DNA of 62,599 nucleotides, the filler included, from Rhabdomonas costata (Eukaryota), in the NCBI GenBank assembly GCA_019059605.1. It is 41 parts of 41 records of this genome, joined end to end, with 100 filler letters (N's around TTAATTAATTAA, not from the genome) between each part and the next. Parts side by side here need not be neighbours in the genome. Positions count along the whole stretch, not along the records: positions 30,593 to 32,022 come from JAHMHO010016174.1; 40 more parts are not named here. One strand, given 5' to 3'. This document shows positions 1,901-46,100 of this stretch, in pieces (the stretch's first letter is position 1; each line of letters begins with the position of its first letter). The notes beneath the pieces are model-generated. The model worked only from the letters and a program-made list of their open reading frames with translations, was not told where the DNA came from and searched no databases. The translations under genes were made by a program, and so were the position numbers.

Positions 1901-3300
1901 GAGATCATTGCGAAGGGTGTTAGTAGTAGGTGATGTCTCTAGATAAACGCAGAGAATACCAGGTGATGGGTGGGTGATGAGAGAAGGGGAGCGGAGTGGA
2001 ACAGAGAAGACCAGAGAGAGAGAAGAATTGATGGGACAAAAAAGGTGGGAAAGGAATATAGAAAGACTAGCAGTTGAGAAGACACGGTGATGCAGGAGAA
2101 ACTGCAGTTTGTGTTGTGGGGTTGCATAAATTACCTGCAATCAAATAAAATTGCTCAGCGGTTAAGAGCCAAATATTCTTCGCTATTTTGCGGAAAAATG
2201 ACCACTTATTAGAATTAACAGCTTTTTCAATATGCCTCAATAAACGTGAGCCTGTTTTAGTACGCTGATTTGTAAATGACCGTTGATGTTAGTGGCCTGC
2301 TAGTTCTGAAATGCATTAAAAACGTAGTTTAAAATTACGGAATAAAATTGTGCCAGAAGGTAATGATAGTTACACCAAAAAACTCATAGTCGTCAGACCC
2401 TACATAATTGCCATCGTCTTCAGCGGGATGGTTATATGGTCCCGCGACTCCACCTCTTTGCTTGCACCTTTACCACGTGAAGGTCTTGTTTTGTGTTGCT
2501 ACGCGCCTTAGGCGCAAAACTTTTAATTTTGCACCCAGCTTGAATGCTTCCACATCAAGTTTGCGGTTTGTGTGAATTTTGGTCCTTACACGTGTAGATT
2601 TTCTGCTTGAGAAGCACAAAACAGCTGAAAAGAATTGTTTGGTTCTGAGTTACGGTGTAATGCAACATATATCATTTGCTAATTATCATCAATTCCCTGG
2701 ACAATTACGCGGATAGTGAAAGAAGCCATTAGTTGCCACAGTTTTGTGCAACGGTATTGTATAGTTTGTCTTTTTTGAGCTTTGTTTCGTGGCGAAAATG
2801 CACGGTAGAGTTCTCTTTGTCTTGTATCAAATATAAAATTGCCACGTTGCTGTATTTACTGCAGTTAAGAAGTGGTTAGCGTGTTATACTGCATTGCACT
2901 AACCACTTCTTAACTGCAGTAAATACAGCAACGTGGCAATTTTATATTTGACACAACACCNNNNNNNNNNNNNNNNNNNNNNNNNNNNNNNNNNNNNNNN
3001 NNNNTTAATTAATTAANNNNNNNNNNNNNNNNNNNNNNNNNNNNNNNNNNNNNNNNNNNNGTTTGTGTTGACAGTGACCTCGTGCCCGTGCCATGTTTGT
3101 GCTCTTGCATCCTTTATCAAGCGCACTTTGCCGAGGCTTGGCGGACGCCCTGTAAATGGGGGGGCCATTCCTTTTTGTTTCTGTTGCCCAAACTCTCACA
3201 GTTTGGAAAGACTTGCGCATTGTTTTTTCTTCGTCTGTTGGTCTTTCGGTTGGTCTTTTCTTCGCCTGTTTGTCTGTCTTTCTGTCTGTTTGTCTCCCAG

Positions 3301-4166
3301 AGGTTCCCTTGGTTTGGGTGGACACTGCGGGGATGGGCTATGAGGAAGCCGAGCACGAGTCTGGCAGCCGCCTGAACGAGGCCGAAGCCGAGCTGGTGGT
3401 GCAGCACGTCGCCCGGCTTACCGCCGCGGGGGTGCCCGGGGAGGCGATTGGGGTGATCTCTCCGTACAGTGCACAGGTGCAGCACCTCAGCGCCAGGCTG
3501 GCCGCAATGGGGGCAGAGCAGGTCGAGGTCAGCACCGTGGATGGCTTTCAGGGTCGAGAGATGGAGGTGCCGCTCTGCCCCACTCCCCCGATATGCTTGG
3601 CGGAAAGGTGAGAACTCAGTCCAAGCCCAAAATATGATTGCAAAAAGGCCCCTTTTGAGCTGTCAGGCAGCGAAAAGGCGAGGTTTTTAAGCCACTATTT
3701 CGCTCTTGAGTCCGAAATCGTTATTTTTTATTTTGTGCAAAGTTCTCACGTTTGGGATGGCGCCGGGTCAAGGTCACAGCAAGGGGAGCATGGAGGGCAT
3801 CCCAGCGGTTTGTTCATTTTTAATGGGTTGAAGAGGTCGACTGAGAAAGGGGTGACTTGCCGGAAATGCGTGGAATGCTCCACTCAGGAAGGATGGTGGC
3901 AGCTTTTTTCTGGTTGCTTTGCGCCTTTTTTCTTTTCGGGGTAGGCCATTGTTATCTCCATGGTGCGGTCCAATTCGCGGCATGAGGTGGGCTTCTTGGC
4001 TGACCAGCGCAGGACCAATGTGGCATTCACCCGCGCCCGCCGTCACTTGTGCATCGTTGGGGACTCTGAGACTCTCACGCAGGAACCCTTTCTGAAGCGG
4101 CTGTTCAGCTACTGCGAAGCCCATGGAGAGATGCGGACTGCGTACGATTACCAGGCTGATGAGTAG
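3301..4166 (+). CDS. IGHMBP2: IGHMBP2/SMUBP-2 (Hcs1)-type SF1 Upf1-like helicase, last two exons
   Basis: Exons 3301-3566 and 3945-4166 joined by a GT..AG intron give VWVDTAG..N.AEAELVV.HV..L...IGVISPYSAQV...VSTVDGFQGREME|AIVISMVRSN..EVGFLADQRRTNVAFTRARRHLCIVGDS...HGEMRTAYDY. These are the SF1B C-terminal motifs with the IGHMBP2-type ending; stop TAG at 4164-4166. Confidence 0.9.
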
Positions 4167-4442: not shown

Positions 4443-4818
4443 CTCTACAATGGCATGAGAGCTTGAACCCTCCTCAGGCACACCCAAAAANNNNNNNNNN
4501 NNNNNNNNNNNNNNNNNNNNNNNNNNNNNNNNNNTTAATTAATTAANNNNNNNNNNNNNNNNNNNNNNNNNNNNNNNNNNNNNNNNNNNNGCACCCCTGC
4601 TTGATCGAAACCCTGTGAGCACTATTGCTTTCCTTGTCGTGTGACATTGTTGTGAAAAAAAAAGAGCCCGCAACTTGATGAGGGGTGTATCCGTAAGGTG
4701 GGTCATTGATGTGCAGCAGTGATTACCATTTTGTGGAGTTAGAGTGCATACATGTAGAGGCGTTCTTTTTGGCCAGAGTGTGACCATAGCATCGGTGTTG
4801 TCCCCCTTCTTCAGGGAC

Positions 4819-5988
4819 ATGACTCTATTCCAAATGAACAAGATGGTGTCTGACCTGCTGGCGTATCCGGAGGTGGACCTGGTGCACACCTTTCTCTCCC
4901 ATCTCATCGGGCTTTTCAACGCCATGCTCAGCCGCAGTGGCGACCTGTTGAACACCTTGCGCTCCCCAGAGATGCGGGTGCTGTGGGGCTTCTTGCAGCC
5001 TCTGAAAAAGCGTCTGGCCTTGGTCCCAGCGGCCGACCCCCACTCTCCCACCACAGCCACTGTGCTGATGTTCCTGGAAACCTGCGAGGCTTCTGTGGTG
5101 GAGAGGCGCGACCGGCGCTTGGCGGAACTGAAGAGGATGCCTCCCAGTGAAGATGTGGCAGAGGAAGTCGCCGAGATTCGGAAGGCCTTCAGCGACATGA
5201 AGAAGGTCGACGACTATGACCGCATCCTGGCCGACCTGCTTCGACTGAAGGGGAAGAGCCTGCCTTCCGTCTCGGTGAGGTTCAACTACCACGCTCAGGT
5301 CGCCCTGGACGTGTTCAAGGGCTACCCCAACATTCCGCGGTCGGAAGCTCTTGAGATCTTCAAGATGATCGCCTCGGTTGGGACCTGCGACAGGGCGGAT
5401 CCCGATGCAATGGAGCTTGTGCTGGACCCAGGATGCCAGGGACTTGTTCTGGTGCTTCGTCAGCTCACGTACCGCAAGTGTGACGAGGTGCGAATGACTC
5501 TCACGGCGACTCAGGTCACTCGGATCCTGTTCGGGTTCTTCGCAACCCAGGTTCTGGGCCCAAGGGGGTGCTACGAGCACACCCCCGACCACTGCCGCGT
5601 CCGTGCTCAGCTCTGGAGGCTTGTTACCTCCGCCTCGAGTGCTGCCATTCTCTCCAACCTCACCAACACTGCGGAAGAGGTCAACGTCAGCCCTGAGTGG
5701 ATTCGCATCCTGGCCACTCTTGCTAAGCTGAGGACGATTCGGGTCCCAACCGCCCGGGCTCCGGCTGACATGGCCCTTTGGGCTGAGTCAGAGGAAGCCC
5801 CAGGCTTTCTGGAGCTGAACGCTCAGCTTCTGCAGCTCATGGCGGACCGGGACACTGCCCTGCATGCGATGCGGCTAATTTCCGGGCTTGGTCCTCGCCG
5901 CATGGTTCGGGTCACTTCGAAGCATCCCATTCCCACCCCAAACTTCGCTGAGTTGATCGTGGTTCGAATGGAGAGGGAGCAGACTTGA
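4819..5988 (+). CDS. Hypothetical alpha-helical protein (about 389 aa), single long exon
   Basis: Long open frame with the same GC3-rich codon usage as the recognisable genes. Polypyrimidine-AG acceptor at 4801-4814 lies four nt before the ATG at 4819; stop TGA ends at 5988. No family recognised. Confidence 0.75.
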   Translation: MTLFQMNKMVSDLLAYPEVDLVHTFLSHLIGLFNAMLSRSGDLLNTLRSPEMRVLWGFLQPLKKRLALVPAADPHSPTTATVLMFLETCEASVVERRDRRLAELKRMPPSEDVAEEVAEIRKAFSDMKKVDDYDRILADLLRLKGKSLPSVSVRFNYHAQVALDVFKGYPNIPRSEALEIFKMIASVGTCDRADPDAMELVLDPGCQGLVLVLRQLTYRKCDEVRMTLTATQVTRILFGFFATQVLGPRGCYEHTPDHCRVRAQLWRLVTSASSAAILSNLTNTAEEVNVSPEWIRILATLAKLRTIRVPTARAPADMALWAESEEAPGFLELNAQLLQLMADRDTALHAMRLISGLGPRRMVRVTSKHPIPTPNFAELIVVRMEREQT

Positions 5989-18816: not shown

Positions 18817-19341
18817 TTATTCAAACTCAGCGTCCTCGTTGAACGCAGGGGGGTTCCAGCGGACGAGCTTCGGTCGGTGCGGCAACTTCACCGCAGGCCC
18901 CATCACCCGGCTAGATTGGGGCTTCTCCTCCACCTGCTCTCCCTCCACCTCCACCGCTTTTTTCCCGCTCCTTCCTTTCAACCGGCGGCCCTTTCCTGGC
19001 CGCCCTTCAGGCTGCTCCTGCTCCACCGCGCCTTCTCCGTCCCCCCCACCGCCTTCCTCGGTGCCGGAGAGCGCCTTCTTGGCGAGCTTCTTTTGCCGGT
19101 GGTTCTCCGCGCGGCCGTCCTGCTCGGCACGCTTATCGGCGAGGATGGCCTCAAGCATCTCGGCCTTCAGAGGCCAGCTGTTCGGGATGCTGTGCTCGGG
19201 TAGCGGCTGCTTCTTGCTGCGGCGGGGGCCCATCTTCGTAGCCAGCTTGCGCAACTTGCGGTGGTGCTCACGGACCTTGCGCGCAACCTTGTACCGCTTG
19301 TGGAGGGTCCAACGCTTACTCAATCTCTTTTTCTTCTTCAT
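18817..19341 (-). CDS. GNL3/GNL3L/Grn1 (nucleostemin family) N-terminal basic-domain protein; no GTPase domain visible
   Basis: SKRWTLHKRYKVARKVREHHRKLRKLA...IPNSWPLKAEML matches the GN3L_Grn1 motif. The 174-aa ORF ends at TAA. A polypyrimidine-AG acceptor lies about 24 nt upstream of the ATG. Confidence 0.85.
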   Translation of the reverse strand: MKKKKRLSKRWTLHKRYKVARKVREHHRKLRKLATKMGPRRSKKQPLPEHSIPNSWPLKAEMLEAILADKRAEQDGRAENHRQKKLAKKALSGTEEGGGGDGEGAVEQEQPEGRPGKGRRLKGRSGKKAVEVEGEQVEEKPQSSRVMGPAVKLPHRPKLVRWNPPAFNEDAEFE

Positions 19342-19908
19342 CGCCGCGGCACCACCAAGGAGTCACTGGAAGGGAAAGAACAAAGGCCTGTTCAACCCGC
19401 CCTCTCGCGGCAAAAACGGGGGAAGAAAGAAGAAAAGACAGAGAGGGCTGCGAAAAAAGTGGACACTCTACTGGGTAAGGCAAACACATCACGAGGCTGA
19501 GACGAGCACTTCGGAGGAGGAGGAGGATGCGCCATCTCGGTATGCCAGAGGACCGAACCGAAACTCTGCTCTTCCAATACCTGCCATATCTGGCAACACT
19601 GTGCCCAACAGGTCAGAAAAATCGCAACGGAAAGTAGGGCAAAAGCCGGTCAGTGAACGGAAAATACACAATGGCGGTAGATTTCGTAGTCTGCTTGGTG
19701 CCGGCACCAGGTATCTGCATATGGCTATGCATCACAGAATTAATGTTATGGTGCAATTCCAAAGCATCCAATTGCCAACCACAACANNNNNNNNNNNNNN
19801 NNNNNNNNNNNNNNNNNNNNNNNNNNNNNNTTAATTAATTAANNNNNNNNNNNNNNNNNNNNNNNNNNNNNNNNNNNNNNNNNNNNTTTTTGTGGGATTT
19901 TTCCAAGA

Positions 19909-24883: not shown

Positions 24884-26500
24884 GTGTGTATCGTGAAGGA
24901 ACCCCTCCCAGCACACTCTCATGCTCTCATCCTCTAATGGCATTGCTTGAATTTTTGCATTTATCATGAAACACAAAGACACACAGAAGAAGTCGCGGGA
25001 AAAAAAAAGGGGGGGGGAATGAGAAGGGATAGGGAAAGGACGGGAATGCCGAGCCTGGAGAGTGCTCAGGGGCTGTTCACACACCAGAAGCTGCATGGTG
25101 CATTTTATGATCAAACGCTCAGAACAAGATTTTAATTATCAAATGTGACCTTAGTGATCAATGAAGAAGACTGTTTTCAGCGGAGCTGGCTGTGCTTTCG
25201 TTTGCGCTTCAGCTGCTCAGCAGGTAACCGGTCATGGAATCTCACGCTCTGCAAAAAAAAATACCAGTTGCTCATGGATAATGCTGGGTCGCATGGATGT
25301 CAGTGATGATTTTTTCGAACGTGAAAGCGAACGTGATCAATGATGACGATTTTATCAAACTTGACCAGTGCCCACAGAAAGCCCAGTTCCAGGTTGACAG
25401 CGACAGTGGAAACTGCACGCGGAACATAGGTTTTGTTCTCGGGTTTGAGTCAGGAGTGGGCATTGATGGGCAGGTACTGACCAGCAGAAGGTTGGGGATA
25501 ATTATAATCTGGGGGGTGGGGGCGTTAAATGTACGAGTCAGACACATTTTGGGGGAGTTTTTTTTAGGTCACAGCGGTTAGGTAAAGTTTGTCGAGTATT
25601 TCTAACTGGGTTTACTTTAGCGAAATGGGGTAGGTACTGTTTTTCTGCCCTCTAGACAGACGCATTTTATTTTGAGAAGGGTTAGGAAATTTATCACCGT
25701 TTAGCGGTTTAACAGAAGTTTAACGCACCACCACCACCACCACCATCGCCAAAAAAAAAATACAAGAGGCCCCAACGCTACTCTACTGGCATCATGTTCA
25801 TTTAAACGTTGTCAACCCATTCCTCTCCCCAACCATGCACTTGGAATGCTCCCAATTTCTCCGCTCGTTCTACGGAAATCCCAAAACCCCTCCTGAAACT
25901 CCCCCCNNNNNNNNNNNNNNNNNNNNNNNNNNNNNNNNNNNNNNNNNNNNTTAATTAATTAANNNNNNNNNNNNNNNNNNNNNNNNNNNNNNNNNNNNNN
26001 NNNNNNTTTGTTTGGTGACATTTTCGAATTTGGAAAAGTCTGGTTTTTCAGGTTTTTGTCTGTTTTTTCTGGCGGTGGGGTTTTGCTTCTTTTCTTTTCT
26101 TTCTCCACCTCCACGTCTCGTGAGACGGCGCGCGCCATACTCTCAACCGCGACGATCCTGAATTGTGGGATCACGGCGGAGGAAACAGAACGAATAATAG
26201 AACAAATAGAAGGATATAGTTTTGCTGAAACCTACTGGGAAGGAGTCTGTACCCCTTGGAGGCTCTTGTACATCCACGTGCGTTCTCCATCCCTTTTCTT
26301 GTGCTAACTTGCAATTGAAGATGGTAAGCATTGATTGCCCTGTTTGTGTGTTTACAAAGTGTGTTCGTAAAGACCACAGGTGAGGTCAATGTTTCAAACC
26401 GAGGCATGTCTTTTTTATCGTTTTTCAAGTTGATGCACTTATTTGTAACAGACAACTTTCGACCGAAGTTCTTTGCTGTTTGTTGTCTCCTGTGTACATC

Positions 26501-27435
26501 ATGTCAGTTACTGGCTGTGCTCCTTTGGAGCACCGCTATGAGAGAACATCTCTTACGTCGCAGAGTTGCTGCGATGGCTGCGGATGCTTTTTACGCGCCA
26601 GTGCCGAAGCCTGGAGGTGCCGCTTGTGTGGCAGGATCTGTCATAGCAATTGCCGAATAGACTCTTCGAGCGCCCTGCTTTCCGCAGAAGTGGTCCCGAC
26701 TTCCGTTTTAGTTCAACTACTCACTGACCTCGAGGTTCCCTTCACGAATGTTGAAGACCGCATTGACCTCATCGGGGCCTTTGCGGGTTGGTTGGCTCGC
26801 CAGAGCTCGCCGCTCTCCTTGCCCCCTCGGAGCCTGGTATTTTCCAGTAGGCTGGTCTTGGGACGATTGCAGGGCTTTCCCCTTGAACTATGGTGCTGCG
26901 TAGTGTATTTTCTGGATCCGAAAGACCTGCGCCCTCTGCTGCTGTCTTGCCGCTCGTACTACTACGTTGTGGAGACGTGTCGCCTTCCGCATTCCGCGGC
27001 AGCTCTCAAGAGGAGACTGTCCACACAGTTTGGGATTACGGACTTTCGTGATGGAGAGTACACGTTGTATCATCGTGGGAATCCCTCTCGTCCATTTTAT
27101 GCGTATATCCACAACTTTAGCTCGGAGAATCCCACAGAGTACCTCACCCTCCGGCACACTGAGCATGGGGAGAACTTTTCGTTTTATCCCAGTGGTGGAA
27201 GTGCTGCTGGGCCGGGATGCCTCACTCGGTTTCGGAAGCTTCGGGTCAATCCTGTCACGCTGGTTGTCAAGACGGACGACTTTACATTCGCGGAAAGCGA
27301 GGGCTCCATTGTTCAGACATACTGGAACCGGAAGCGCACCCTGATTCTCCGGACGATTCCATACGCCACTGCCCGGGCGTGCTCTGGGCATGGGCGGTCT
27401 GGCACCGCGAGCGTTGACCTCCGGGACACCCCAAC
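26501..27435 (+). CDS. C1 zinc finger - (SAP/HeH-like) - F-box - GON domain protein, 3'-truncated by contig end
   Basis: H-x12-C-x2-C-x12-C-x2-C-x4-H-x2-C at 26531-26653. F-box-like LQGFPLELWCCVVYFLDPKDL..LLLSCRSYY at 26867-26977. GON-like LPHS...DGEYTLY...PTEYLTL...GENFS...TRFRKLRVNPVTLVVKTDDFTFAES...IPYATA..C...GTASVDLRDTP from 26984. Confidence 0.8.
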
Positions 27436-27865
27436 NNNNNNNNNNNNNNNNNNNNNNNNNNNNNNNNNNNNNNNNNNNNTTAATTAATTAANNNNNNNNN
27501 NNNNNNNNNNNNNNNNNNNNNNNNNNNNNNNNNNNCCCGAAGCGTGCATGCATTCTTACCTTCTTTATTCTGGTCCCGTGATTTCCTTGGTTGCTGTGCT
27601 CACCGGCGCACCGGCCCTCCAATCGAGCCGATCATGACGTGATATCTCATGGCCTTCGTGTGGTCGTCTTTTGGGGCACCCATCAGTGGGCAGTGACTCA
27701 GTCATCGGTCAGAAGCGAATGGGTACATTCACCGGGCAGTGCAACAGGATAACACTGGGCTGCGGGTCACTATACAGGCATTGTGGAGGTGACTTCTCAG
27801 TTTTAGTCCACCTTCTCCTGGTGGGCACATTTCCATTTTTGATATCTTTCCTTCCCTGCGGACAG

Positions 27866-30150: not shown

Positions 30151-30794
30151 GTTGTTGCCTTTTCTGCGGTTTGATCACTGATTGTTTACATTTGCCTTAA
30201 CTTTGCCTCGCTAGTCATTGGAATGGTTGGTAGTATGACGATCTGCCACCAAAACCTCGTTGCCATGACGCCAAAAGGAAATAATAAGTTGTAAGCAGTG
30301 CGGCGCATGCAGACTAAGATGTAACAGTGTCAAATTGCAACTTTGTAGCAATCAGATTCTCTCCGCAAATTGTGTAAAAATATAACCGCATGTACACAAG
30401 TACACCAAAGGCGCAGTCTGATGCAACTATTAGGTTTTGCCTTCAACGTCATGTCATGGCATGATTTAGTGCGGCGTGAGTTCTTAATATTGNNNNNNNN
30501 NNNNNNNNNNNNNNNNNNNNNNNNNNNNNNNNNNNNTTAATTAATTAANNNNNNNNNNNNNNNNNNNNNNNNNNNNNNNNNNNNNNNNNNNNTCGATTGG
30601 TTAGGTTTCGGGTCCCTCTCTTGAATTTGACGTGGGATGCTCTTTTCCTTCTCATTTGTAATTTGTTTTCTTTAACACGATAGGGCTAATCCGAAGCAGG
30701 CGTGGTGTATAATTGAATTTTTTTTAAAAAAATTTATTTGCATTTTATTTTTTCCTTTTCATTTATTTTTCTTTCGAATGGCGTACCCATCATT

Positions 30795-31198
30795 GGGGTG
30801 GCGTCTCCATCCGGGTCGCTCTATTTTTTCTCTATTATTTCGCCTGTGCTGATCTTGGGGCAAGAGTACCCCAGTCGAGCACGCCCAGGGAGAGGAATGG
30901 GGTGCATGGAGCAGGGTACCAGACCGCAAAGACGGGCCTCCTGCCAGCCTGCTTTTGTGAAATGGAGTAAACCCGTGCGAAAACGGTCTCTTTGTCCGGG
31001 TCCACGCGAGGGCAAACACACAACCAAGAACAAAGGGGGGGGGCGGAAGGGAGCACCACACTCCAAAGAAAACTCCTCCCCCCGACCGCTGTAACCAGCA
31101 GCGGCGAGCTGCCTGAGGGTACGGGGGGAGATGAGAGTCGCTCCGCGGGTCCCCCCAGACGAAGCTCAGCTGAGATCCGATGCCTTTGCGCAAGGCAA
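30795..31198 (+). repeat. Interspersed repeat(s) upstream of the first visible HAP2 exon
   Basis: 30795-30886 matches 57618-57715 in reverse complement, and 31148-31198 matches 22030-22084 in reverse complement. Confidence 0.8.
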
Positions 31199-31386
31199 CC
31201 GATACCCCGCTGCCAGCACTCCGCCGGCCGGCTCCGTTTTCCGCAACCTCAAACTTCTTCTCAACCGGTCTTAATTCAGTTTGTCTTTACGGGGTTTTCG
31301 CAATGACTTCAAGTGTTTGCACAGTCATGTTTCACTGCAGTTCCGAAGTCGAAGGCGTCTTCCCGTTTCCGAACTTTTTCTGACAG

Positions 31387-32022
31387 GATGCGAGTCGAAA
31401 TTTGTTGTCACGCTGACAGTTCAGAACAACCAGCAGAACACCGAATCTGTCGACGCCTTCACCACCGCGACATCACCCTCAACAGGCCAAACGTATACCC
31501 TGGCGGATCCTGTGTCCATCTCTGTGGCCAAGGCAGCACCACTGGTTCGGTACCCCATCAGCTACGTTCAAGATGTCAACTCTCAGCCCATTGGTTTATC
31601 CTGCTTCGGGAGAGGTGGGGGTCGCTTTTCCTTTGAGCTCTCTGCAATGGGTTTGAACGGTGGCGAGAGGAGGGCTGAAATGAAATCTTGACAAAAAAGT
31701 AGTAACTACAGTGGTCGGAATCTGGAAATTATGGGCATACATACATAAGAATTCTCAGAGCAACGGTTGATTCGGAGATGTGAATTTATTGATACATACA
31801 GCAGGGAAAAGGGATAATTGGGAAAAACTCCAGTACGTTTGGCTCCTGTTTCTTTTTTTCAACATAGGATATTGGTTTTGTTTGTTGCTGAACTCCTGAA
31901 CTCCGTTGCTAAATGTGCCTTTCTGTGATTCAGAAAAGGATATTTACACAAGGTTATTTAGTTGTGACGACGGCCCAACATCTACTTCAACAACCTGCGG
32001 TTGGCAGTTGGACACCAACAAA
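31387..32022 (+). CDS. HAP2: HAP2/GCS1 gamete membrane fusogen, N-terminal ectodomain fragment (2 exons)
   Basis: Exons 31387-31593 and 31934-32022 (GT..AG, phase 1) give CESKFVVTLTVQNNQQNTE...LADPVSISVAKAAPLVRYPISYVQDVNSQPI|EKDIYTRLFSCDDGPTSTSTTCGWQLDTN. This follows the HAP2 pattern C..K.VVTL.V...P.....K.....YP..Y...N..P.E...C.D......TCG. Confidence 0.85.
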
Positions 32023-41442: not shown

Positions 41443-42140
41443 TGTGTTGCTCGGGGGCCGCCGAGGTGGAGTGGGGCCTGAGTGAGGTGACCTCATCCTG
41501 CGGAGCCGCCGTGTTGCCCTGGCGGGGCAGAGGGGCAGAGGAGGACGAGCTGCCGCCATCGCCGCCCCCCGCTTTGGTCTTGGGGGCACCCCAAGGCTGC
41601 TCCACAGTGAGCTCCTCAAGCGGGGAGCTGAACGAAGACACCTTTTTTTTTTGCAAAGATGGGAAACCACAGGCATTGACCCCTGCAGGTGAACGCACAG
41701 CGCGCTGGGTGATGCTGTAACCTACACAAGCAAGTATCCACTTGGAACAGAACAGTGACCCCACGCACACAAGCAAAGATGCACACCCGGGACCCTGACC
41801 CACTGCTCCGCCGCAGCGGAAAAAGCCACCCCAGAACCCCGCGGCGCCGCTCCTGCCCATCCTCGTCACCCCCAACCGAGCCACTGCCGCGGCTGCTAGC
41901 CCCAATGTAGCCCCCCCGTTGGCGGCTGCCCCCACCGCCAACCCGAGCGCTGCTGCTGCTGCTGCTGGTACTGCTGCTGGTACTGCTGCTGTTGGTGTTG
42001 CCCGCGGTGCTGCCAGCTGTGCTCTTTGTGGTGGCATCGGGCGGAGGCAGAGGAGAGCCGGGGGACTGCTCAAAGTACTCCCGAAAGCTCTGCTCGGCAA
42101 CCGCCAGCTCGGTCTCCTGGCGATGCAGCAGGCTCTCCAG
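41443..42140 (-). CDS. Hypothetical low-complexity Ser/Gly-rich protein fragment (2 exons)
   Basis: AG/GT-bounded GC-rich open segments (LESLLHRQETELAVAEQSFREYFEQ... and ELTVEQPWGAPKTK...). Confidence 0.5.
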
Positions 42141-42825
42141 CTGCGGTGAAAGAGCGGGCTTGCCGGCGCCGGAGCTGGGCGCCCCCTTTCCCCTGAACAT
42201 TTCATCCATTCCTCTCGCAAACTCACATACACAGCGGACGTGTCCTCGCACAAGACAGCGAAGCCTCTAGAAAGTGTGTAAGGCGCAGGTGAACTTCAGC
42301 CCTGCAGAACACCTAAAAAGGCAGTGAAGGTGGGGACAGACAGGGTTGGCGTGTACGTGTGAGGGGAACCACACTCGTGACGGGGTAACGGACCTATCAC
42401 CACAAGACCCTTTCTGCGTCGATGCCCCCACCCCTTAACTCTGGGGAATTTCTGTTGAAATGCTGTATTTGAACAAACTGACTGTTACAGGTATCCGCAC
42501 AACAGCGCACTGAAAAAGCGACCGAATTTATCGCATGATTTTCTCACTCGCGTGACTTTAGTGGGTTTTAAAGAAAGTTTTCAGCTATTTCGGGGCATGA
42601 AAACGACTTTTGAGAGTCTCGCCTATGAAGTTCTGCGGCCACTTTTCGCAGAATTATTTTTCAGCATTTTAGCATTACCCGCACCACATATGTGCATAAA
42701 CTCCCCTTTCCATACCCCACCCAACNNNNNNNNNNNNNNNNNNNNNNNNNNNNNNNNNNNNNNNNNNNNTTAATTAATTAANNNNNNNNNNNNNNNNNNN
42801 NNNNNNNNNNNNNNNNNNNNNNNNN

Positions 42826-43197
42826 CGCCAGCACAATCACAACTTCGCGACGGGCAAGAAGGCTCACAGGGCTGCACCACCACCGCCCGTCCGAAAGCGT
42901 CCCGCAGGAGTGGCTCTGGATAGCTTGATCAAGCTCAAATCTCATCACCGGACAAACCACATCCGCAATCACAACCAGGTATGCAACAAGGGTTCCCCAC
43001 AGGTCAATCCCATTCACGATCAACACTGCCCACTTCCCCGCCACCCCGTACGCGCACTGCCCCAGCTCCGGGTAGTCAAACTCCAGCGCATGGAATCCAG
43101 GGTAGCCCAGCCGCACCGCCTCAAAACTCCACACCAAGAGCATGATGGTGTAGCTGTTCAGCGCGGCAAAGGCAGCAATAAATCCCAGGAAGGGAAC
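42826..43197 (-). CDS. Amino acid/auxin permease (AAAP/SLC38-like) exon
   Basis: After a CAG acceptor: FAALNSYTIMLLV...DYPELGQCAYGVAGKWAV......LWGTLVAYLVVIADVV, the Aa_trans TM2-TM3 pattern (Y..LG..A.G..G; G..VAYL..I.D). Confidence 0.85.
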
Positions 43198-46100
43198 CTG
43201 TGCAAAAGAAAAAATGAACCTGCCTAGTTCCGGGGAAAGATGACTCCAACTCTTCCAAAAGAACCGTTTCTTCTTTCTAACCCAAATCAAAAAAATACCC
43301 AGAAAGTAAGAGGGAGCAAACCTGGGGCGCATGGGGATCCTAGTAATGTGGTGTGCAAGCATTGAAAGACTTGAAAGACTCAGCCGACCTCATGACCGAA
43401 GGCATTGTGGCCGTAGTGGGCTCTGTTTCTGTCAGTGAACAACTGAAAGTTGGGTGAGAGAGTGTACTGGACTGAGGAGATGAAAACCATCTTTTTTTTT
43501 ACTGTCACTGTACCCGAGGTCGTGGTTTGTAGTTGTTAGCTGTTGGTAGTGCTTGTTTTCGAGGTTCGGTGCTGTTTTTTTGTGCAGGCGGGCTGCCTCT
43601 GGCCATCTGGGGACCCCGGTGAAGGGCACCACCTGTATGCCTTTCCGGCTTCACACCTTTTTCCTCATTTCACTTCCGTTAAGCCACCTCCGCGTCATAA
43701 CGCACGAAGTCCTATGTGGCATGTATTGAGCTCTCACCTCCAAGCTTGGCAACGTCCTTTGTTCTTAAATTTCGAAAAGTTTTCTATTGGTTCCCTTTCT
43801 TCCTCAGTTCTGCTCTCCCCGACGGGACGCACGACGAAGGCTCGTTTGACCTCTCGCCGCGCTGAGCCCACTCTTGTGCTGACTCATCCCAGCCCCAGCA
43901 ATGCAATCTCCAGCCCGGCCCGTGTGGCCCCGACAAGCCCTCCCAGCGGCCATCCCTCGCCCTTGGCGAGCTCAGAGGCTGTTGGCCCTGGAGGTGACGG
44001 CGCGGGTGGTGCACCGGAAATATCCTCTGCACCGGACGGGTACGCACAGAGGGGTAAGGTCTTCTGGGCTGCTCCTTTGCTCCTTCATATTGCGATTGCA
44101 AGGGTAGCACTAATCTCAACATTGAATGTGCCCCAAAACGAAGTACCCCTCAATTTAATGTCACCCGATTCAAAGTTCGATTTGTTTCTCTTTGGGCGGA
44201 GAGGCCAAAAATTATCAAAGCGAAATTCAATCTCATCCAAAGTTCCCAACACAANNNNNNNNNNNNNNNNNNNNNNNNNNNNNNNNNNNNNNNNNNNNTT
44301 AATTAATTAANNNNNNNNNNNNNNNNNNNNNNNNNNNNNNNNNNNNNNNNNNNNTGTTTTGTGTGATAAAGTTAATGCAATTTCACTGCACCCACTCATT
44401 CTTTATGTCTTCCTCCTCTTTCGCTCACCAGTGAAATTGCATTAACTTTATCACCCAAATCCCTCCATCCGCTTACGCTCCTCTCTTCCTCGAACGGGCG
44501 GCATTCCTGAGGCCTCCACAAATTCATTTGGGCATTTCGTTCGGAACATTGACGTGGTACTGTACCCCTTTTCCATGAATAAAAGAAGGGTGTCCGTGAA
44601 AAAGAATAGCAGCAGCACACGTAGCCCTTGTCTTGGGACTGAAAGTGCACACTTGCAACGAATCCTTCACCAGAACAACGAGAACAGACGTCTCATTACA
44701 AGACTGAGGTCACCCATTAAGCTGGAATAGCCGCATTAGGCTCGACAAATAGTGACTTGTGACTTGTTTTTCTGGATACCTGCCCCCCCAAAAAAATACA
44801 GGCAAAAAAGGCATGTTGAAACCAGCATTCTGTGCATACTCTGGATGTACCAGAGCCTTCCGGAGAAAGATGGGGCCTGGGAGGCACACTTGCAGTCGGC
44901 TGACGGACGGAGCTGGCCACGGGTGGCATCCGAGTGAGGCGGAGGAGTTCCGCCAAAAACATCCCGAGTCGCGGCAGTGACAGCCCTTTGAGGGACAGGG
45001 TCATCCCCTTGAAAAAACGGACACGATGGCAAAGCTGATGAGGAAGACATATAATTTGCACCCCAAACCCCCCATTTTATGACGCGTGAACCTCTGTTGG
45101 TAGAGTGGTTCAGGTTGGGGGGGGGGTGACGATTACGACTGCTAACCGTTTCCGATGGAAACAGAAATCTGTCTGTAACACTTGCTGAATTACCTTGGGT
45201 CAGATAAAACAAAACAGGACCTTCGAAATGACTTTTCGGGACAAAGGTAAACTTTCTTTCCCTGCCCTGGATGAGTGGTTTTGTACTGCCGCTCAAAATT
45301 GCTGCTGGCAAGGACTAGTCAATGACGCGCAGGAATGGGCGGAGGAGTAGAACAGCAATAGAGCGGGGCGAAGGCAGGCGACATAAGGATTCAGCAGCTG
45401 CATAGAAAGCAATAAGAATGTGTAGGGGAAGAAGGCATCACTTGCCTCGCTTTTCTCAACAACGCACCTGTCACATGGTACAACATTGCAGAGATGGGCC
45501 CAGCGGGCCCTCACACAAAACACCAAAACGGAGAAGAAAACCCCGAAAAAAGCAGAGTATTCTGCGGGAAACAAACGCAACGGTTGCAACCGCTTGCAGC
45601 TTTGATTGAACCGCAGTGCAGTGGCGTCTTCATTTTCACCGCACCACCATCTGTCTCTTTGCATTGATCGAAACAAAGCAATTGCAATCAGGGATGCCCC
45701 AAAATTGTATCAATGCCAACACAGTGGCACACCAACAAACAACAACTGCAATGTCAGAGAGAGAATAGGAAAAAACCCAAAANNNNNNNNNNNNNNNNNN
45801 NNNNNNNNNNNNNNNNNNNNNNNNNNTTAATTAATTAANNNNNNNNNNNNNNNNNNNNNNNNNNNNNNNNNNNNNNNNNNNNTGTTTTTGGGTGCACTAG
45901 AAAGTTCTGGAAAAGATAAGAAAGTGGCTTTAAGTCACCTTGGAAAGGTGACAGGCATCCCTCATCCCGATCATTCTCTCCGGGATCCACAACTCGTAGT
46001 GTGACTTCTCCAGAACAACTTCCAACCTCCGCGGCACCGAAAAAAAACGAAGTCAAACGGCACAAGAAATGAAAAGGTTTCGAATGAGCTTGGAAAGGGG

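What the first reader, a model, noticed from the sequence alone, without database searches (positions are those of the whole stretch)
31387..32022. HAP2/GCS1 gamete fusogen in a probable euglenid
Seen: the second exon is absent from the ORF track, but splicing 31593 to 31934 restores the conserved N..P.E motif and continues into C-D-D-G...T-C-G-W, with no stops or frameshifts. Known: HAP2/GCS1 is the class II fusogen for gamete fusion in plants, algae, ciliates and apicomplexans, and is also present in trypanosomatids. Sexual reproduction has not been convincingly shown in euglenids. Inference: an intron-containing, apparently intact HAP2 suggests cryptic sex or another cell-fusion process. 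Only about 100 aa are visible.
Basis: partly seen in the sequence, partly recalled or inferred. Interest (0 to 1): 0.8.

Follow-up and report, generated by a model that had tools for sequence, protein, structure and literature searches.

The report
HAP2 gamete-fusogen gene fragment, organism unconfirmed
A 1.4-kb contig carries two intron-separated exons that encode the first ~98 residues of a HAP2/GCS1 gamete fusion protein, a real but ordinary member of a widespread family, and neither the rest of the gene nor the organism could be checked.

Summary
The window is 41 unrelated ~1430-bp contigs joined by spacers. The finding lies in contig 30593-32022.

- **Gene structure:** exon A (31387-31593) and exon B (31934-32022, cut by the contig end) flank a 340-nt GT..AG intron.
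- **Family match:** exon A alone matches Pfam PF10699 HAP2-GCS1 (E 1.5e-12, 47.3 bits, cutoff 27.4). It recruits 49 HAP2 proteins from 1.84 billion representatives.
- **Splice junction:** against a profile of those 49, the spliced peptide scores 119.8 bits versus 85.9 for exon A alone. Twenty shuffles of exon B reach 94.2 at most. The proposed junction is the best of 66 stop-free donor/acceptor pairs.
- **Conserved residues:** all 11 columns that are at least 80% conserved are matched, including the Glu made by the split codon (47 of 47).

It is HAP2, but only about 98 residues are visible, so "intact" is untested. The euglenid origin could not be shown. A weak tree puts the fragment beside a jakobid and kinetoplastids. 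Two other conserved exons in the window have no near-identical Euglena gracilis protein. This is a new member of a known kind, of modest interest.

The parts
30593..32022 (.). The contig that holds the finding (1430 bp), bounded on both sides by N44-TTAATTAATTAA-N44 spacers. It is not physically linked to the neighbouring contigs.
   Evidence: 41 pieces of 1426-1430 bp. Its trinucleotide make-up is not an outlier: rank 32 of 41 by distance from the window mean, GC 0.491.
31370..31386 (+). Inferred 3' splice site of the preceding intron: a pyrimidine-rich stretch ending in CAG.
   Evidence: Sequence read. Profile similarity stops 2 residues upstream of the first Cys. No transcript evidence.
31387..31593 (+). 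Exon A, 207 nt: 2 nt that complete a codon, 68 whole codons (31389-31592) and 1 nt of a split codon. It encodes the start of the mature HAP2 ectodomain, from the first conserved Cys to N..P.
   Evidence: Pfam PF10699 E 1.5e-12, 47.3 bits, profile positions 4-72 of 515. PDB hits are HAP2 only. 49 HAP2 relatives found among 1.84e9 representatives.
31594..31933 (+). Conventional GT..AG intron, 340 nt, GC 0.424, in phase 1.
   Evidence: Read-through of the exon A ORF adds nothing to the profile score (85.8 vs 85.9 bits). The junction is the best of 66 stop-free pairs.
31934..32022 (+). Exon B, 89 nt visible and cut by the contig end. It completes the conserved Glu codon and encodes the stretch up to C..D......T-C-G-W.
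   Evidence: Adds 33.9 bits to a profile that was chosen without it. Twenty shuffles of exon B added -0.4 to 8.3 bits. Alone it scores E 2.7e-05 at profile positions 107-136. E69, C79 and C90 are matched.

Best explanation
The contig carries two consecutive internal exons of a nuclear HAP2/GCS1 gene of an intron-bearing eukaryote. Together they encode about 98 residues at the N-terminal end of the mature ectodomain. This stretch runs from the first conserved cysteine, through the first beta strands, to the conserved Glu, and on to the cysteines that precede the family's Cys-rich GFCC.C segment.

The conserved Glu is the one that forms a salt bridge with the Arg organising the fusion loops in Chlamydomonas HAP2.

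By homology, the full protein would be a single-pass class II membrane fusogen. It would sit on one gamete (or mating cell), insert its fusion loops into the partner membrane after adhesion, trimerise and fold back to merge the two membranes.

Shown here: homology, exon-intron structure, and conservation of every strongly conserved residue in the visible part. Inferred only: that the rest of the gene exists and is intact, that it is expressed, and that it acts in cell fusion.
For: - **Family match.** Pfam PF10699 scores 47.3 bits against a cutoff of 27.4, E 1.5e-12.
- **Solved structures.** phmmer against 177,635 PDB sequences gave 4 hits, all HAP2 ectodomains.
- **Relatives.** phmmer against 1.84e9 representatives gave 55 hits at E<=1e-3. 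Of these, 49 align over query residues 1-67 near their own N-termini. The other 6 are multi-stretch repeat proteins and were set aside.
- **The relatives are HAP2.** 50 of 50 (query plus 49) carry PF10699 and no other family. A profile of them hits 7 PDB sequences, all HAP2.
- **Named relatives.** Physarum GCS1; HAP2-like proteins of Malawimonas and Andalucia; a Cafeteria protein whose UniRef name is 'Generative cell specific-1/HAP2 domain-containing'; and Bodo saltans and Cryptobia (Trypanoplasma) borreli proteins.
- **Splice support.**
- **Conserved columns.** All 11 columns conserved in at least 80% of the 49 relatives are matched, including E69 (47/47).
- **Role of the Glu.** E126 is described as strictly conserved and salt-bridged to R185 in passages of Fedry et al. 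2017, PMC5332557. Equating E69 with E126 rests on column conservation plus my reading of chain numbering, not on a residue-level structural alignment.
Against: - Only about 98 residues are visible, roughly profile positions 4-100 of the 515 in the Pfam model.
- The fusion loops, the GFCC.C motif, the original PF10699 signature segment, domain III, the transmembrane helix and the signal peptide all lie off the contig.
- No other contig of the window holds a credible HAP2 exon. The only other hit is 41900-42193 at E 0.012, in the C-terminal part of the full-length profile, on a contig that is rich in Ala/Ser/Gly ORFs.
- Exon B on its own finds nothing meaningful in the PDB (5 hits at E>=1.1, none HAP2) or in Pfam.
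- A fold of exon A alone (pLDDT 71.2, pTM 0.32) found no structural match at E<=0.001.
Confidence: 0.8

Rival explanations
1. The two exons are the remains of a decaying or already broken HAP2 gene in a lineage that has lost sex. The visible part only looks intact because it is short.
For: Only about 98 residues can be inspected. No upstream exon was found in 794 bp. No protein with 50% or higher identity to it appears among 1.84e9 representatives (best hit 48% identity over exon A), so no transcript-derived copy is in hand.
Against: There are no stops or frameshifts. Every one of the 11 strongly conserved columns is retained, including three cysteines and the salt-bridge Glu. Splice signals are intact. 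Absence from protein sets is expected for a gene expressed only in gametes.
Confidence: 0.12
2. The gene is real, but the contig comes from a contaminating or different eukaryote, not a euglenid. It would then say nothing about sex in euglenids.
For: - The organism was not identified: no genome held and no Rfam match.
- A GNL3L/Grn1 exon has no relative of 318 residues or more at E<=1e-5.
- A helicase exon is only 57% identical to the best E. gracilis protein.
- None of the 29 HAP2 clusters looked up is labelled as a euglenid. Twenty of the 49 were not looked up.
Against: - The contig's composition is typical of the window, rank 32 of 41.
- A quick tree of 97 columns puts it in a group with Andalucia and the kinetoplastid clade, but with weak support (SH-aLRT 82).
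- It has a spliceosomal intron. Kinetoplastids largely lack cis-splicing according to a passage of PMC6366073.
- The top hit of the helicase exon is EP00667_Euglena_gracilis_P004880.
- The length limits of those protein searches mean short E. gracilis transcript fragments would have been missed.
Confidence: 0.45
3. The protein is intact and expressed but serves a fusion event other than classical gamete fusion, for example fusion of vegetative-looking cells.
For: A review passage states that in some protists morphologically identical vegetative cells fuse without distinct gametes, and lists Euglenozoa with sexuality observed in one species only (PMC11603280).
Against: In the systems covered by the passages I read, HAP2 acts in mating or fertilisation (PMC5332557; PMC11603280). 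Nothing in the fragment distinguishes the two uses.
Confidence: 0.1

Closest known systems
HAP2 ectodomain in PDB entry 5ow4 (deposited as 'Uncharacterized protein'; Trypanosoma cruzi HAP2 by my recollection of Fedry et al. 2018, not from a call)
   Same: Best single-sequence PDB hit of exon A (E 0.015, query 1-67 on chain 27-96). It is also the best hit of the family profile (E 2.2e-170). The opening C-E-x-K-x-V-V-T-L-x-V stretch and the Y-P...Y...N..P stretch are shared, as seen in the alignment.
   Different: Low overall similarity (18.8 bits). By recollection, the T. cruzi gene is intronless, whereas this one has at least two introns. After the second visible Cys the window has C-G-W, where the kinetoplastid relatives and their unnamed neighbours have C-G-R.
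Chlamydomonas reinhardtii HAP2 (PDB 5mf1, 6dbs, 6e18)
   Same: Same family. The N-terminal strands align over query 1-67. The conserved Glu of the P.E motif is present.
   Different: Weak pairwise similarity (E 1.5-2, about 12 bits). The algal protein has a longer insertion between the first strands (alignment).
HAP2-like proteins of Andalucia godoyi (P0014), Bodo saltans (P0020) and Cryptobia/Trypanoplasma borreli (P0011)
   Same: 39-41% identical over 95-97 aligned columns. They fall in the same weakly supported tree group. There is no gap at the exon junction in the alignment.
   Different: None is close. The group has SH-aLRT support of only 82, and the window sequence lies outside the kinetoplastid clade.
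Physarum polycephalum GCS1 (P0039) and unnamed protein P0054
   Same: Among the highest identities over the spliced 98 residues: 42% for P0039 (40 of 96 columns) and 44% for P0054 (42 of 96, the highest). Both match 15 of 30 in exon B.
   Different: They fall on the other side of the quick tree. This shows how little lineage signal about 97 columns carry.

Membership tests
HAP2/GCS1 (Pfam PF10699) | Match to the family profile above the curated cutoff | tested here: met
   Exon A alone scores 47.3 bits against a cutoff of 27.4, E 1.5e-12, profile positions 4-72 of 515.
HAP2/GCS1 (Pfam PF10699) | The relatives found by the fragment are themselves HAP2 | tested here: met
   50 of 50 carry PF10699 and no other family. 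The profile of A1 hits 7 PDB sequences, all HAP2. Named relatives include Physarum GCS1 and HAP2-like proteins.
HAP2/GCS1 (Pfam PF10699) | Conserved N-terminal residues: first Cys, K, Y-P, Y, N..P.E (the salt-bridge Glu) and the next two Cys | tested here: met
   All 11 columns conserved in at least 80% of the 49 relatives are matched: C1 47/47, E19 40/49, K48 45/49, Y55 48/49, P56 45/49, Y59 47/49, N64 47/47, P67 44/47, E69 47/47, C79 41/43, C90 40/40.
HAP2/GCS1 (Pfam PF10699) | Cys-rich GFCC.C segment, the conserved Arg (R185 in Chlamydomonas) and the fusion loops | not testable with these tools
   The contig ends at 32022, before this segment. The family consensus continues with ...S-E-G-F-C-C-S-C. 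No genome is held, and the metagenome scans found nothing.
HAP2/GCS1 (Pfam PF10699) | Three-domain class II fusion-protein fold | tested here: inconclusive
   Only the 68-residue exon A could be folded (pLDDT 71.2, pTM 0.32, two strands). Foldseek against the PDB found no match at E<=0.001.
HAP2/GCS1 (Pfam PF10699) | Signal peptide, the N-terminal A/S-S-S-x-L-E-x-C motif and a single C-terminal transmembrane helix | tested here: not met
   None of these is present on this contig. Profile positions 1-36 have no hit, and a motif search finds nothing in 30593-31386. This reflects the short contig, not the gene, so it does not count against membership.
HAP2/GCS1 (Pfam PF10699) | Expression in gametes and requirement for cell fusion | not testable with these tools
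Euglenida as source organism | Near-identical matches of window genes to known euglenid sequences, or a euglenid-specific marker | tested here: inconclusive
   - The helicase exon's top hit is E. gracilis EP00667_P004880, but at 57% identity.
- The GNL3L exon has no hit.
- There is no Rfam match.
- The 150 longest ORFs give only 7 Pfam families, none diagnostic.
- The HAP2 tree position is weakly Discoba-like.

The most novel reading that the evidence does not exclude
The contig is from a euglenid, most plausibly Euglena gracilis. It would then be genomic evidence for a gamete fusogen in a group where sex rests on very few old observations. The gene would be silent in vegetative cultures, which would explain why no protein at least 50% identical exists among 1.84 billion representatives, a set that includes the E. 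gracilis transcript-derived proteome. That would point to an undiscovered, inducible sexual or cell-fusion stage.
Probability: 0.2. Interest if true: 0.55.

Novelty: new member of a known kind. Interest (0 to 1): 0.3.

Why it matters
HAP2 is one of only two widely conserved syngamy-specific genes named in a review passage (PMC11603280). Its presence is routinely used as a sign of cryptic sex.

If the source is a euglenid, the gene would give a concrete handle for looking for mating in a group where evidence is very thin. That handle would be a primer pair across the 31593|31934 junction, an expression marker and a knockout target. One review passage says the evidence is confined to a 1937 paper on one Euglena species (PMC11756805). 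Another says sexuality has been observed in only one species of Euglenozoa (PMC11603280).

None of my six literature searches pairing HAP2, GCS1, GEX1 or hapless with Euglena, euglenid or Euglenozoa returned a paper reporting a euglenid HAP2. The library lacks most subscription papers. The survey most likely to list one (Speijer et al. 2015, recalled) was not held, and supplements were closed.

Against this, HAP2 is already known in kinetoplastids and many other protists, so one more lineage is an expected result.

Tried and rejected
**Relatives and extension of the contig**
- Whole-genome search: no genome is held.
- Word-seeded protein search with exon A against longer proteins: 73 candidates, none at E<=1.
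- Metagenome scan with the exon A peptide: 594 pattern matches, none confirmed.
- Exact 33-base match of the contig end in metagenomes: 0.

**Exon B on its own**
- Against PDB sequences: 5 hits at E>=1.1, all telomere protein TPP1/ACD, taken as noise.
- Pfam on exon B alone: nothing.

**Other protein and structure searches**
- ESM Atlas with exon A: phage hypothetical proteins at 0.89-0.91 with low recognition, uninformative.
- ESM Atlas with the 421-residue ORF at 4723-5985: scores of 0.77 or lower, uninformative.
- Structure of exon A alone and Foldseek against the PDB: no match at E<=0.001.

**Organism identification**
- Rfam on the window: 0 matches.
- GNL3L exon: no relatives.
- Helicase exon: no lineage signal.
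- Pfam on the 150 longest of 242 ORFs of 85 residues or more: 7 families, none diagnostic.
- Quick tree: unresolved; 22 of 38 inner branches have SH-aLRT support below 80 (drawn open) and only 1 reaches 95. Nine of the 50 rows were dropped for having fewer than 80 filled columns.

**Upstream exon**
- Profile search and motif search: not found.

**Tools and papers not available**
- Sequencing-run search and earlier-findings search.
- Two look-ups of a paper that is not held.

**Considered and rejected**
- A chance ORF, rejected.
- Read-through of exon A instead of splicing, rejected.

Full report
**What the window is.** The 62,599 bases are not one locus. They are 41 separate pieces of 1426-1430 bp, each set apart by 44 N, TTAATTAATTAA and 44 N. 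The finding lies in piece 30593-32022. Nothing on neighbouring pieces is physically linked to it. No whole genome is held for this window.

**The observation.** Reading the sequence shows the following:
- a pyrimidine-rich stretch ending in CAG at 31386
- an open stretch from 31387 to 31593
- GT at 31594-31595
- a second pyrimidine-rich stretch ending in CAG at 31933
- an open stretch from 31934 to the contig end at 32022

The whole codons of the first stretch give 68 residues (P0002). Those of the second give 29 residues (P0001). The codon split by the 340-nt intron is G|AA, which reads Glu. The joined reading is 98 residues with no stop.

**Is it HAP2?** Four lines of evidence say yes.
- Exon A alone matches Pfam PF10699 (HAP2-GCS1) at E 1.5e-12. 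It scores 47.3 bits against a curated cutoff of 27.4, over profile positions 4-72 of 515.
- Against 177,635 distinct PDB sequences it has four hits at E<=10, and all four are HAP2 ectodomains. The best is 5ow4 at E 0.015.
- A full HMMER pass over 1.84 billion cluster representatives gave 55 proteins at E<=0.001.
  - I set aside six that match through many repeated stretches: P0005, P0007, P0015, P0040, P0048 and P0055.
  - The other 49 all align to query residues 1-67 near their own N-termini, just after a hydrophobic leader.
  - All 49, plus the query, carry PF10699 and no other Pfam family (50 of 50).
  - A profile of them hits seven PDB sequences, all HAP2, at E values down to 2.2e-170.
- I looked up 29 of the 49 clusters. 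The named ones are Physarum polycephalum generative cell specific-1; HAP2-like proteins of Malawimonas californiana and Andalucia godoyi; a Cafeteria roenbergensis member whose UniRef name is 'Generative cell specific-1/HAP2 domain-containing protein'; and proteins of Bodo saltans and Cryptobia (Trypanoplasma) borreli.

**Is the splice right?** Exon B played no part in choosing those 49 relatives, so it is an independent test.

| Sequence scored against the profile of the 49 | Bits |
|---|---|
| Exon A alone | 85.9 |
| Read-through of the exon A ORF | 85.8 |
| Spliced peptide | 119.8 |
| Exon A followed by shuffled exon B (20 shuffles) | 85.5-94.2 |
| Exon B alone (profile positions 110-135, directly after exon A's 39-105) | 20.0 |

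- A blind scan of all 2476 six-frame ORF pieces of the window found only these two ORFs. Their E-values were 1.4e-25 and 2.7e-05, and they were colinear on the profile.
- Of the 432 combinations of 27 GT/GC donors and 16 AG acceptors around the intron, 66 are stop-free.
- In the alignment the junction introduces no gap relative to most relatives.
- The window matches every one of the 11 columns conserved in at least 80% of the 49: C1, E19, K48, Y55, P56, Y59, N64, P67, E69, C79 and C90.
- E69 is the split-codon Glu and is present in 47 of 47 relatives. Passages of Fedry et al. 2017 (PMC5332557) describe a strictly conserved Glu (E126 in Chlamydomonas) in strand b, which forms a salt bridge with the functionally essential R185 that organises the fusion loops.
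- I take E69 to be that residue. The basis is column conservation and chain numbering. I did not make a residue-level structural alignment.

**What is not there.**
- The upstream part of the family profile (hydrophobic leader and an A/S-S-S-x-L-E-x-C motif, positions 1-36) has no counterpart in the 794 bp before exon A, by profile or by motif search.
- The contig therefore shows one complete internal exon and part of the next. That is roughly a fifth of the Pfam model, and 8-17% of full-length relatives, which have 564-1254 residues.
- 'Intact' cannot be judged.
- The only other hit in the window, 41900-42193 at E 0.012, falls in the C-terminal part (positions 555-621 of 734) of the full-length profile. 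It lies on a contig rich in Ala/Ser/Gly ORFs, and I regard it as compositional.

**Whose gene is it?** This is the weak point of the finding.
- Rfam finds no RNA gene in the window.
- The window is eukaryotic. It holds GNL3L/Grn1, F-box, C1, GON, an SF1 helicase AAA_12 domain and an amino-acid transporter.
- The HAP2 contig is compositionally typical of the window, rank 32 of 41.
- Over the spliced 98 residues it is 39-44% identical to its 20 closest relatives of very different lineages: Physarum 42%, Andalucia 41%, Trypanoplasma 40%, Bodo 39% and Malawimonas 39%.
- A quick maximum-likelihood tree on 97 columns and 41 rows puts it in a 12-row group with Andalucia godoyi and a clade holding the two kinetoplastids. 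Nine rows with fewer than 80 filled columns were dropped. The group has SH-aLRT support of 82, and 22 of the 38 inner branches fall below 80.
- That position, next to but outside kinetoplastids, together with the intron, is what a euglenid or another discobid would give. It does not prove either.
- Two attempts to tie other window contigs to Euglena gracilis did not succeed.
  - A GNL3L exon found no protein of 318-2000 residues at E<=1e-5.
  - A helicase exon had EP00667_Euglena_gracilis_P004880 as top hit, but at 57% identity. It scored 84 bits against 83 for unnamed metagenomic proteins, and named bacterial helicases scored 75-79.
  - Those searches only saw proteins above a length limit, so short E. 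gracilis transcript fragments would have been missed. The negative result is therefore weak.
- The published E. gracilis draft is extremely fragmented (2,066,288 sequences, N50 955 bp; passages of PMC6366073). That fits a window made of 1.4-kb contigs, but so would many other assemblies.
- I put a euglenid origin at about one in two.

**Mechanism.** By homology, the complete protein would be a type I membrane protein with a class II fusion fold. Its fusion loops insert into the partner cell's membrane, and trimerisation and fold-back drive bilayer merger (passages of PMC5332557). The visible part supplies the first strands and the Glu that anchors the fusion-loop scaffold. Everything beyond homology is inferred, including expression, localisation and any role in mating.

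**Comparison with what is known, and novelty.**
- HAP2 is documented in plants, algae, ciliates, amoebozoans and kinetoplastids, among others (review passages; Leishmania and trypanosome titles and abstracts in the listing).
- This sequence is a new, fairly divergent member. No representative reaches 50% identity over exon A (best 48%).
- Six literature searches combining HAP2, GCS1, GEX1 or hapless with Euglena, euglenid or Euglenozoa returned no paper reporting a euglenid HAP2.
- In the papers I opened, the two sets of terms occur in unrelated passages.
- The library omits most subscription journals, supplements were closed, and the broad survey most likely to list one was not held. I therefore do not claim it is unreported.
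- Review passages state that evidence for sex in Euglena is confined to one 1937 paper (PMC11756805), and that sexuality in Euglenozoa has been observed for only one species (PMC11603280).

**Verdict.** Euglenid origin, intactness and the link to cryptic sex remain open. This is a new member of a known family, seen as a short fragment, and of modest interest. Interest would rise if the source proves to be a euglenid and the rest of the gene is open.

Noticed in passing
window 1-62599: The window is a chain of 41 unlinked contigs of 1426-1430 bp, joined by N44-TTAATTAATTAA-N44 spacers. ORFs that run into a spacer are artefacts.
   Followed up: yes
window 4723-5985 (+): An uninterrupted 421-residue ORF fills most of one contig. 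It has no Pfam family at E<=0.01, and Atlas scores are only 0.77 or lower. It is probably a real long exon of an unknown protein.
   Followed up: partly
window 26384-27436 (+): A 350-residue ORF with GON domain (E 1.2e-08), C1 (E 4e-05) and F-box (E 0.0013) matches, an unusual combination.
   Followed up: no
window 3156-3608 (+): An exon of an IGHMBP2-like SF1 helicase (AAA_12, E 1.3e-22). Its best database hit is Euglena gracilis EG_transcript_4909, at only 57% identity over 87 residues.
   Followed up: yes
window 18820-19362 (-): The N-terminal GNL3L/Grn1 domain (E 1.5e-15). It has no relative of 318-2000 residues at E<=1e-5 in the 5.8-billion-cluster set.
   Followed up: partly
window 42826-43389 (-): An exon-like ORF with an amino-acid transporter (Aa_trans) match, E 2.9e-05, just below the Pfam cutoff.
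   Followed up: no
one of the 150 longest ORFs of the window (not located): A DSBA-like thioredoxin domain match (PF01323, E 5.8e-11) turned up in the batch scan. The output does not say which ORF it is.
   Followed up: no
window 41900-42193 (+): A weak match (E 0.012) to the C-terminal part (positions 555-621 of 734) of the full-length HAP2 profile, on a contig whose ORFs are rich in Ala/Ser/Gly. I take it as compositional, not as a HAP2 exon.
   Followed up: partly
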